A stretch of DNA of 64,000 nucleotides from Podarcis pityusensis (taxonomy: Eukaryota): NCBI GenBank assembly GCA_964106645.2, contig OZ067039.1. One strand, given 5' to 3'. Made by a program: the position numbers. How positions within the stretch are numbered: position 1 is the stretch's first letter; the number at the start of each line of letters is the position of its first letter. Shown in pieces: positions 16,615-17,484 of this stretch.

Positions 16615-17484
16615 CTAAAGGAAAAGAAAAAAAGGGGAGACGGCATCAGGAATATAGATTCTAGTGTGGAAATGACTGATGGGATATCAGAAACTATGAA
16701 CAAGTACAGAAGTCTCAGGGCTTTTCTCTCAAAGTAAGTCAAAAGCAGATCATTGATCCTATGAAGATATTCTAGTAATCCCTGTGTTCAGGACAAGTAA
16801 TAGCTCCTTTGGGGAGTGCTCACAAGTCACCCAATGTGAGCAGGCCGGGCTTGAAAGCAACAGCCCTCTATACAATCACACAATGGCAGTGTGGATCAAT
16901 TTTCCAGTCAGCCATGCCCTTATCCAGGATACTCCATTCCACCCCCTCCTTCATTTTCTGTTCCTCTTCCCCAACAATCTGTCTGCATCCTGTTGTCTCC
17001 ACTGACCATACTCAGCCTTCATTGGACTGTTTTGGGATCCACCCCCTCCCTTTATGGATTTTTTTCAAATTATTTTTTTGTACTTCTGCATGCCTTGTGA
17101 CTGTCCAAGCATGCCACTACCTCCCCCTTGTTTGTGGATGGTGCATTTTTTTACTACACACTCGGAGAACAAGATCACAATTAGCATACAGGGTACTGTC
17201 TCTCAAATTGGATGTACTTAATATCATCCACCATGGCTTTAAAAACATGGTTAGACTGCTCCTTCTTGAATGTGTTTAAAGTGTGTACATGGCCATCAGC
17301 ACACCTTCAGGACAAGTAAAAGACGGTACCACTTCACAAAATTATGCAGTTTGTGAAGTGGTACCGTCTTTTACTTGTCCTGAATCTACTGTCAGTCCAC
17401 TTCACTGGATGACTCAAAGTTCTAGTACAAGAGAAGGAGAAAGGCTTCTCTCTGCCCATTTTCTTCACACCACACATTGTTTTA

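What the first reader, a model, noticed from the sequence alone, without database searches (positions are those of the whole stretch)
17306..17384. Perfect 35-bp hairpin written into a decayed CR1: template-switch signature and candidate de novo intronic miRNA
Seen: two 35-bp arms with zero mismatches around a 9-nt loop in FLT4 intron 22, inside a CR1 remnant that is otherwise heavily diverged. The right arm follows the CR1 sequence as I recall it, decay mutations included. The left arm sits where about 25 nt of unrelated CR1 sequence should be. Inference: the arm was copied recently, in one step, from the decayed neighbour. Established: short-range replication template switching creates such perfect inverted repeats and can give instant pre-miRNA stems; a stem of about 35 bp is Microprocessor-sized. 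The hairpin would be co-transcribed with FLT4.
Basis: partly seen in the sequence, partly recalled or inferred. Interest (0 to 1): 0.75.

Follow-up and report, generated by a model that had tools for sequence, protein, structure and literature searches.

The report
Perfect hairpin inside a decayed LINE
A flawless 35-base-pair inverted repeat in an intron of a VEGFR3/FLT4-type gene was most likely made in one step, when DNA synthesis copied a neighbouring piece of an old broken LINE element backwards; it is a tidy example of a known mutation type, and nothing here shows that it makes a microRNA.

Summary
Window 17306-17340 and 17350-17384 are 35-nt arms, 100% complementary, around a 9-nt loop. 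It is the only perfect pair among 13 short-range inverted repeats in the window.

It lies in a 1011-nt GT-AG intron (16615-17625, minus strand) between two kinase exons of a VEGFR3/FLT4-like gene. The intron number was not checked.

The right arm continues, in frame, a decayed LINE ORF2 C-terminal remnant on the minus strand. An independent database protein and an in-window paralogue both match this remnant. The paralogue has no counterpart to the left arm and no inverted repeat there. The left arm also puts two in-frame stops into the LINE frame. There are no target-site duplications and no second copy in the window.

A single templated inverted copy (template-switch class) is therefore the best explanation. 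The label "CR1" rather than L2 is untested.

"Recent" holds only relative to the LINE: up to about 4% neutral divergence is allowed.

The miRNA idea has no support. The loop is 9 nt, the transcribed strand has no basal UG, apical UGU/GUG or CNNC, and no Rfam family is reached. The published conversion rate is about 0.9%.

The parts
17350..17384 (-). Ancestral arm. It is the 5' arm in the sense of the LINE and of the host gene. On the minus strand it encodes the peptide FRTSKRRYHFT, in frame with the LINE ORF2 C-terminal remnant upstream.
   Evidence: The P0008 tblastn alignment spans 17489-17352 on the minus strand (54% identity over 46 residues, E 3.6e-11). BLASTP to the paralogue P0005 reaches the Cys codon just past the arm. 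The ORF is listed.
17341..17349 (-). 9-nt loop, probably still ancestral LINE sequence. It holds the Cys codon that the paralogue shares.
   Evidence: The BLASTP alignment ends at HFTNC here against HFSSC in the paralogue.
17306..17340 (-). Derived arm: an exact reverse-complement copy of 17350-17384. It has no counterpart in the paralogue and introduces two in-frame TGA stops into the LINE frame.
   Evidence: frame 2. The paralogue has no inverted repeat at the equivalent place.
17180..17515 (-). 5'-truncated, decayed LINE ORF2 C-terminal remnant, in the sense orientation relative to the host gene. Its limits are approximate. It contains one frameshift and in-frame stops.
   Evidence: phmmer against 1.84e9 proteins found P0008 at E 2.7e-5. 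tblastn of P0008 is. nhmmer and BLASTP to the paralogue are. None of the 13 intron ORFs hit a reverse-transcriptase family in Pfam, as expected for a C-terminal piece.
16615..17625 (-). Host intron, 1011 nt, GT-AG. In transcript sense the hairpin starts 241 nt after the first intron base and ends 691 nt before the last.
   Evidence: (GTAAGC...CTTTAG) and the flanking exon translations.
16492..16614 (-). Downstream kinase exon carrying the HRDLAARN and DFG motifs.
   Evidence: Translation. Pfam PK_Tyr_Ser-Thr E 1.1e-15 for the ORF 16441-16614.
17626..17720 (-). Upstream kinase exon, ending in FLASRK. I read the acceptor position by eye; it is not otherwise verified.
   Evidence: Translation, sequence, weak Pfam kinase hit.
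35304..35552 (+). In-window paralogue of the same LINE C-terminal region (protein P0005). It is open in one frame through the place where the hairpin sits in the intron copy.
   Evidence: Nucleotide identity is 65.5% over 145 aligned pairs, with a JC distance of 0.46.
16787..16803 (+). Unexplained 17-mer, 16/17 identical to the outer end of the left arm and beginning exactly at the arm boundary.
   Evidence: There is no extended homology around it: 316 of 1000 shuffles scored as well.

Best explanation
An old, 5'-truncated LINE fragment (the ORF2 C-terminal part, of CR1/L2 type by recall) lies in sense orientation in a kinase-domain intron of a VEGFR3/FLT4-like gene. Long after it had decayed, one mutational event copied 35 nt of it (17350-17384) in reverse complement to a spot 9 nt away, overwriting roughly 10-20 nt of LINE sequence. 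The event was of the template-switch class. A growing DNA end left its template, used the nearby sequence on the complementary or its own strand as template for 35 nt, and then returned. The result is a perfect 35-bp inverted repeat that is transcribed within the host pre-mRNA. It is most likely a neutral by-product with no processed RNA. Shown: the anatomy, which arm is ancestral, the absence of transposon marks, and the absence of the repeat in a paralogue. Inferred: the one-step mechanism, its enzymology, transcription with the host gene, and neutrality.
For: The arms are perfect and far beyond chance. The right arm is contiguous and in frame with LINE-like coding sequence matched by an independent protein (P0008: phmmer E 2.7e-5 in 1.84e9 proteins; tblastn E 3.6e-11 over 17489-17352). 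It is also matched by an in-window paralogue (BLASTP 17/48 identities, E 1e-5; nhmmer E 0.025). The paralogue keeps one open frame through the equivalent region and has no inverted repeat there; only two weak pairs with 85-111-nt spacers were found. The left arm puts two in-frame stops into the LINE frame, so the repeat cannot have belonged to an intact ORF2. From the shared Cys codon to the shared FKK there are 26 codons here against 18 in the paralogue, a net +24 nt for a 35-nt arm. The LINE copies are 65.5% identical (JC 0.46), whereas the arms differ at 0 of 35 positions. P(no mismatch) falls below 0.05 once 4.3% divergence has accrued and is 2.8e-5 at 15%. No target-site duplication was found for lengths 2-11 at insets 0-6. 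No other copy of the arms or flanks exists in the 64 kb. Literature: template-switch mutations create perfect hairpin stems in one event, with example lengths of 28 and up to 83 nt, and are common in genic regions (PMC10710096, Results read).
Against: No orthologous intron or family consensus could be examined, so the ancestral state rests on one diverged paralogue, which may carry its own indels. Beyond the Cys codon the downstream alignment to the paralogue is by eye only; BLASTP found nothing there. No microhomology is evident at the outer junction (flanks). A 17-mer 520 nt away that repeats the arm's outer end exactly from the boundary is unexplained. Raw reads were not available, so an assembly error is not excluded. 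Sequence alone cannot separate replication-fork switching from repair-associated snap-back synthesis.
Confidence: 0.75

Rival explanations
1. The same inverted copy was made during double-strand-break repair. A 3' end snapped back on itself and was extended, as in polymerase-theta-type templated insertion, and was then joined with loss of a few bases. On this view it did not arise at a replication fork.
For: The net outcome is a small loss (about 11 nt by the paralogue yardstick) plus a 35-nt templated inverted insert only 9 nt from its template. That this pattern is typical of such repair is recalled; I read no paper on it.
Against: Nothing in the sequence distinguishes it from fork template switching. 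By recall, 35 nt is at the long end for such inserts.
Confidence: 0.2
2. The hairpin is a functional de novo intronic miRNA or other small-RNA precursor, cut out of the FLT4 pre-mRNA.
For: The stem is 35 bp, the preferred Microprocessor length (PMC10710096 introduction; PMC6298569 passages). It is intronic and in the sense orientation, like 81 of 99 intragenic template-switch miRNAs in human. It folds very stably on the transcribed strand.
Against: The loop is 9 nt, against a stated preference for 10 or more. On the transcribed strand there is no basal UG, no apical UGU/GUG and no CNNC within 50 nt of the 3' flank. A fully paired stem also cannot hold the mismatched GHG motif (determinants). 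The predicted stem runs on for about 5 more pairs past a small internal loop, which blurs the basal junction. No Rfam family reaches its gathering score: 0 in the whole window and 0 of 13 sub-threshold matches. Only 57 of 6,054 suitable template-switch hairpins (0.9%) are annotated miRNAs in the human lineage. No small-RNA data were available.
Confidence: 0.04
3. The 79-nt unit is a miniature inverted-repeat transposon that inserted into the LINE fragment.
For: Perfect terminal inverted repeats. A 17-mer equal to the arm terminus (16/17) lies 520 nt away and starts exactly at the boundary.
Against: No target-site duplication of 2-11 nt was found at insets 0-6, either for the hairpin or for 16787-17384 taken as an element. 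No other copy exists in 64 kb. One arm is contiguous, in frame, with LINE coding sequence, so it is host sequence and not part of an insert.
Confidence: 0.03
4. An older, imperfect inverted repeat was made perfect later, by template switching between the arms or by gene conversion.
For: Homogenisation and expansion of imperfect inverted repeats by template switching is described (PMC10710096 Results; PMC13100816, search-listing abstract only).
Against: The one paralogue shows no inverted repeat at this place. An intact ORF2 could not have held this one.
Confidence: 0.07
5. Assembly artefact: the left arm is not in the animal's genome.
For: None from the sequence. It could not be tested.
Against: The unit is short and embedded in unique, otherwise orderly intron sequence. 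There are no N runs and no gap nearby.
Confidence: 0.05

Closest known systems
Template-switch mutations (TSMs) that create hairpins and de novo miRNAs (Monttinen, Frilander and Loytynoja 2023, PMC10710096; abstract, introduction and Results read)
   Same: A perfect inverted copy of adjacent sequence appears in one step in previously unstructured sequence. It sits in an intron on the host gene's sense strand, and its length is within the range of reported events.
   Different: There is no expression evidence. The source is a LINE coding remnant, and the host is not a mammal. The supplementary tables and datasets of that paper could not be seen, so I cannot place 35 nt within their length distribution.
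Native 3' hairpin plus 8-nt microsatellite of CR1 LINEs (PMC8665684, passages read)
   Same: A hairpin inside a CR1-type LINE.
   Different: The native hairpin lies in the 3' UTR next to the ATTCTRTG repeats and is part of the consensus. This one lies in the ORF2 C-terminal coding remnant, breaks the frame, and is absent from the paralogue. The nearest microsatellite-like match is about 420 nt away and is only 13/16.
Miniature inverted-repeat transposons (MITEs)
   Same: A short unit bounded by inverted repeats.
   Different: No target-site duplication, no further copies in the window, and one arm is host LINE sequence.
Canonical animal pri-miRNA hairpins
   Same: A stem of about 35 bp, intronic, co-transcribed with the host.
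   Different: A 9-nt loop, no mismatches, none of the three primary-sequence motifs, no Rfam family, and no small-RNA evidence.

Membership tests
Template-switch-generated inverted repeat | Inverted copy of nearby sequence of at least 15 nt (criterion used in PMC10710096) | tested here: met
   35 nt, 100% complementary, template 9 nt away. The criterion was read.
Template-switch-generated inverted repeat | The parent (ancestral) sequence lacks the inverted copy, and the event explains a cluster of differences better than substitutions and indels | tested here: inconclusive
   No orthologue was available. As a proxy, 1 of 1 in-window paralogue lacks the repeat and is 24 nt shorter over the stretch. 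It is only 65.5% identical, however.
Template-switch-generated inverted repeat | No marks of transposition (no target-site duplication, not a multi-copy unit) | tested here: met
   0 duplications found for lengths 2-11 at insets 0-6. No second copy in 64 kb. Genome-wide copy number could not be tested.
Canonical pri-miRNA | Stem of about 35 bp | tested here: met
   35 perfect pairs. On the transcribed strand about 5 further pairs follow a small internal loop.
Canonical pri-miRNA | Unstructured apical loop of 10 nt or more | tested here: not met
   9 nt. The preference is stated in PMC10710096.
Canonical pri-miRNA | Basal UG, apical UGU/GUG, downstream CNNC, and a mismatched GHG in the lower stem | tested here: not met
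   0 of 3 sequence motifs on the minus strand. A mismatched motif is impossible in a fully paired stem. These motifs help processing but are not obligatory (about 60% of hairpins have CNNC).
Canonical pri-miRNA | Discrete ~22-nt 5p/3p reads with 2-nt overhangs | not testable with these tools
   No small-RNA data.
Canonical pri-miRNA | Match to a curated miRNA family | tested here: not met
   0 matches at gathering score in the window. The best sub-threshold matches are 41.8 bits against a cut-off of 245, and 39.1 against 75.
CR1 LINE | Homology to the ORF2 of named CR1 elements | tested here: inconclusive
   LINE-like coding homology is shown to the unnamed P0008 and to a paralogue. No named reference was reached (searches found nothing; two searches were closed). 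That the motif series is of CR1/L2 type is recall only. 0 of 13 intron ORFs and 0 of 112 window ORFs hit a reverse-transcriptase or endonuclease Pfam family.
CR1 LINE | 3' hairpin followed by ATTCTRTG-type microsatellite | tested here: inconclusive
   A 13/16 match lies on the correct strand at 16869-16884. However, 8 matches against 3.28 expected is reached by 6 of 100 shuffles. Local alignment of that region to the four canonical in-window tails is not significant: 20, 147, 24 and 23 of 500 shuffles scored as well, and 39 of 386 control pieces.
MITE | Target-site duplication flanking the terminal inverted repeats | tested here: not met
VEGFR3/FLT4 gene (host) | Closer to VEGFR3 than to VEGFR1 or VEGFR2, with receptor tyrosine kinase architecture | tested here: met
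   The exon ORF 58222-58665 matches 4bsk_A (VEGFR3) at E 5.3e-28, against 8.2e-5 and 4.6e-4 for VEGFR1 and VEGFR2. Ig-like, VEGFR-specific Ig-like and kinase Pfam hits on the minus strand occur in 6 of 112 ORFs.

The most novel reading that the evidence does not exclude
The hairpin is processed from the FLT4 pre-mRNA into small RNAs (a miRNA or a hairpin-derived siRNA). That would make it a regulatory RNA born in one template-switch event out of LINE coding sequence in a non-mammalian vertebrate, co-expressed with a lymphatic-endothelium receptor gene.
Probability: 0.04. Interest if true: 0.6.

Novelty: new member of a known kind. Interest (0 to 1): 0.3.

Why it matters
This locus shows the polarity of a template-switch-type event from internal evidence alone. 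One arm is still in frame with a recognisable LINE coding remnant. The other arm breaks that frame. Such loci are raw material for new hairpin RNAs, and one outside mammals would extend the published primate and mouse picture. By itself it is one more neutral-looking instance of a frequent mutation class. The published study counts 53,666 putative events in human genic regions, of which 6,054 are of miRNA size.

Tried and rejected
1. Nucleotide self-searches of the arms, flanks and whole intron against the window (blastn; nhmmer). Besides the paralogue at 35.3 kb they gave only the 17-mer at 16787.

2. Pfam on 13 intron ORFs and on 112 window ORFs. No reverse transcriptase or endonuclease was found anywhere, so no long LINE is available for comparison. 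The 112 were 106 ORFs hand-picked from the 176 of >=75 aa listed, roughly those of >=84 aa, plus 6 short ORFs beside the kinase exons. The 447 minus-strand ORFs listed were not all scanned.

3. Four canonical CR1 3' ends were found through the ATTCTRTG doublet. They were compared with the intron by blastn, nhmmer, tblastn of their ORFs and local alignment with shuffles. No significant similarity was found.

4. Word-indexed protein searches for longer relatives, with the 52-aa ORF and with a 3-sequence alignment. Nothing was found.

6. A full-text search for two 6-residue words of P0008 returned 0 papers.

7. The idea that 16632-16803 (+) is a second, inverted fragment of the same LINE. Protein-level scores were marginal (14 and 21 of 300 shuffles as good) and nucleotide-level scores were null (316 of 1000). 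tblastn of P0008 did not hit it. I left it as unexplained.

8. Multi-template explanations using 9-12-mers shared with sites within 3 kb. There were 16 shared 9-mers against a shuffle mean of 6.5 (maximum 22), mostly from the 17-mer. Not pursued.

9. P0009, the second phmmer hit, is low-complexity repeat protein and was ignored.

10. A first PDB search with an Ig exon gave only generic Ig matches.

11. The bacterial and archaeal genome collection was not scanned, because it cannot hold this locus. No vertebrate genome collection was on hand. Genome-wide copy number and orthologues therefore stayed unchecked.

Full report
**Observation.** The sequence holds two 35-nt arms, 17306-17340 and 17350-17384. 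They are 100% complementary and separated by 9 nt.
- A 119-nt stretch around them folds at -63.4 kcal/mol (+ strand) and -71.4 kcal/mol (- strand), with z about -12. In each case 0 of 200 shuffles folded as well.
- The expected number of such perfect repeats in the window is about 2.5e-14.
- Among 13 inverted pairs of >=16 nt within 200 nt in the 64 kb, this is the only perfect one. The other 12 are 73-90% complementary.
- The window has no N.

**Host gene.** The gene runs on the minus strand.
- The exon ending at 17626 encodes a kinase segment ending in FLASRK. The donor is GTAAGC at 17625.
- The next exon, 16492-16614, starts after CTTTAG and encodes the HRDLAARN and DFG motifs (Pfam kinase E 1.1e-15).
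- The intron is 16615-17625, 1011 nt. In transcript sense the hairpin begins 241 nt after the first intron base.
- Minus-strand ORFs further up carry Ig, VEGFR-1-like Ig-like and VEGFR1-3 N-terminal Ig-like domains; with the kinase exon ORF, 6 of 112 ORFs had hits.
- The N-terminal ORF matches solved VEGFR3 at E 5.3e-28, against 8.2e-5 for VEGFR1 and 4.6e-4 for VEGFR2.
- The gene is therefore a VEGFR3/FLT4 orthologue. I searched exons singly and made no joined model. The intron number and the species were not checked.

**What the hairpin sits in.** At nucleotide level the intron looks unique in the window. The minus-strand reading frame through the right flank and the right arm, however, is coding-like.
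- The 52-aa ORF 17337-17492 was run with phmmer against 1.84 billion representative proteins. Two hits had E <= 0.001. One of them, P0008, is a 53-aa protein that is 56% identical (E 2.7e-5). The other is low-complexity.
- tblastn of P0008 back on the window gives its best hit at 17489-17352 on the minus strand (54% identity over 46 residues, E 3.6e-11). This runs without a break into the right arm.
- A second copy of the same region lies at 35304-35552 on the + strand (protein P0005). It matches by nhmmer at E 0.025 and by BLASTP with 17/48 identities at E 1e-5. Nucleotide identity is 65.5% over 145 aligned pairs, JC distance 0.46.
- By recall only, the order of conserved residues matches the ORF2 C-terminus of CR1/L2-group LINEs.
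- I could not reach a named reference.
- The window does hold four canonical CR1 tails with the ATTCTRTG doublet, at 24514 and 29928 (+) and at 55363 and 58813 (-). The intron is not significantly similar to any of them.
- A 13/16 doublet match on the right strand at 16869-16884 is at chance level.
- 'LINE remnant' is therefore supported. 'CR1' as opposed to L2 is untested.

**Which arm is original.**
- The right arm (17350-17384) is in frame and contiguous with the LINE remnant. P0008 and the paralogue both cover it.
- The loop still holds a Cys codon shared with the paralogue.
- The left arm has no counterpart. The paralogue stays open in one frame through this region to a shared FKK motif. 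It has no inverted repeat there, only two weak pairs with 85-111-nt spacers.
- In the intron copy the same frame reads through the left arm into two TGA stops and then resumes to FKK (frame 2). An intact ORF2 therefore could not have carried this repeat.
- From the Cys codon to FKK there are 26 codons here and 18 in the paralogue, a net +24 nt. By that yardstick the 35-nt arm replaced about 11 nt.
- Beyond the Cys codon the match to the paralogue is by eye; BLASTP found none.

**Mechanism.**
- No target-site duplication of 2-11 nt flanks the hairpin at any inset from 0 to 6. None flanks 16787-17384 taken as an element either.
- No other copy exists in the window.
- The arms differ at 0 of 35 positions, while the two LINE copies differ at about a third of sites. 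The chance of no mismatch is 0.05 at 4.3% divergence per site since formation and 2.8e-5 at 15%.
- The repeat is therefore much younger than the LINE fragment. 'Recent' is relative, though. At neutral rates of the order of 1e-9 per site per year (recalled), 4% corresponds to tens of millions of years, so related species may share it.
- A single templated inverted copy fits all of this. The literature describes such template-switch mutations as frequent and able to build whole perfect stems in one event (PMC10710096).
- Sequence alone cannot tell a replication-fork switch from snap-back synthesis during break repair.

**The miRNA idea.** The stem length is right, and the element is intronic and sense-oriented. 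Everything else argues against it.
- The loop is 9 nt, against a stated preference for 10 or more.
- On the transcribed strand the basal junction reads AU, not UG. No UGU/GUG lies at the apical junction, and no CNNC lies within 50 nt downstream (determinants from PMC6298569).
- A perfect stem lacks the mismatched lower-stem motif. The stem can also extend by about 5 pairs, which blurs the basal junction.
- Rfam gives nothing at gathering score. The 13 sub-threshold matches are generic hairpin matches far below their cut-offs.
- In the human lineage only 57 of 6,054 suitable template-switch hairpins are annotated miRNAs.
- I put the miRNA reading at about 4%.

**Unexplained.**
- A 17-mer at 16787-16803 equals the outer end of the left arm at 16 of 17 positions and starts exactly at the arm boundary. 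No homology surrounds it. It may belong to a second, inverted fragment of the same LINE family, but the tests were marginal and P0008 does not hit it.
- A 9-mer from the arm recurs 12 nt beyond the hairpin.

**Limits.**
- No vertebrate genome, repeat library, raw reads or small-RNA data were on hand.
- The closed collections and the prokaryote genome collection could not help.
- The supplements of the template-switch paper, which hold event lengths and per-locus data, could not be read.

**Verdict.** This is a real, non-chance structure. The CR1 label and the replaced length are untested. The miRNA claim is speculative. It is a new member of a known kind and of moderate to low interest.

Noticed in passing
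window 16787-16803 (+): A 17-mer that is 16/17 identical to the outer end of the hairpin's left arm and begins exactly at the arm boundary. There is no surrounding homology. It may be a second, inverted fragment of the same LINE family.
   Followed up: partly
window 17397-17405 (+): A 9-mer identical to 17329-17337 inside the left arm. It lies 12 nt beyond the hairpin and so forms a short inverted repeat with the right arm. By my rough estimate the chance is about 0.04.
   Followed up: partly
window 24514-24529 (+), 29928-29943 (+), 55363-55378 (-), 58813-58828 (-): Four canonical CR1 3' ends with the ATTCTRTG doublet (0-2 mismatches). The ends at 29.7-29.9 kb and 55.4-55.6 kb share about 200 nt at 72.5% identity.
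   Followed up: partly
window 35304-35552 (+): A second remnant of the same LINE ORF2 C-terminal region, open for 82 codons up to a stop. It served as the paralogue yardstick.
   Followed up: yes
window 4416-4563, with 4474-4837: An imperfect 59-nt inverted repeat (73%) that is related to the repeat upstream of the CR1 tail at 55.6-55.8 kb (nhmmer E 2.5e-9 and 4.9e-8). It looks like an interspersed repeat with internal symmetry.
   Followed up: no
window 17522-17595 (+): An A-rich tract, then (AACC)n at 17552-17582, then a run of 13 G at 17583-17595. All of this lies 30-100 nt inside the intron from the donor site at 17625 and borders the 5' end of the LINE remnant.
   Followed up: no
window 47146-47278 and 60106-60193: Two further imperfect short-range inverted repeats: 31 nt at 87% with a 71-nt spacer, and 39 nt at 77% with a 10-nt spacer. 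Neither was examined.
   Followed up: no
window 16779-17279 (+): A 166-codon stop-free frame antisense to the host gene, in the pyrimidine-rich part of the intron. It has no Pfam hit and is most likely a composition effect.
   Followed up: partly
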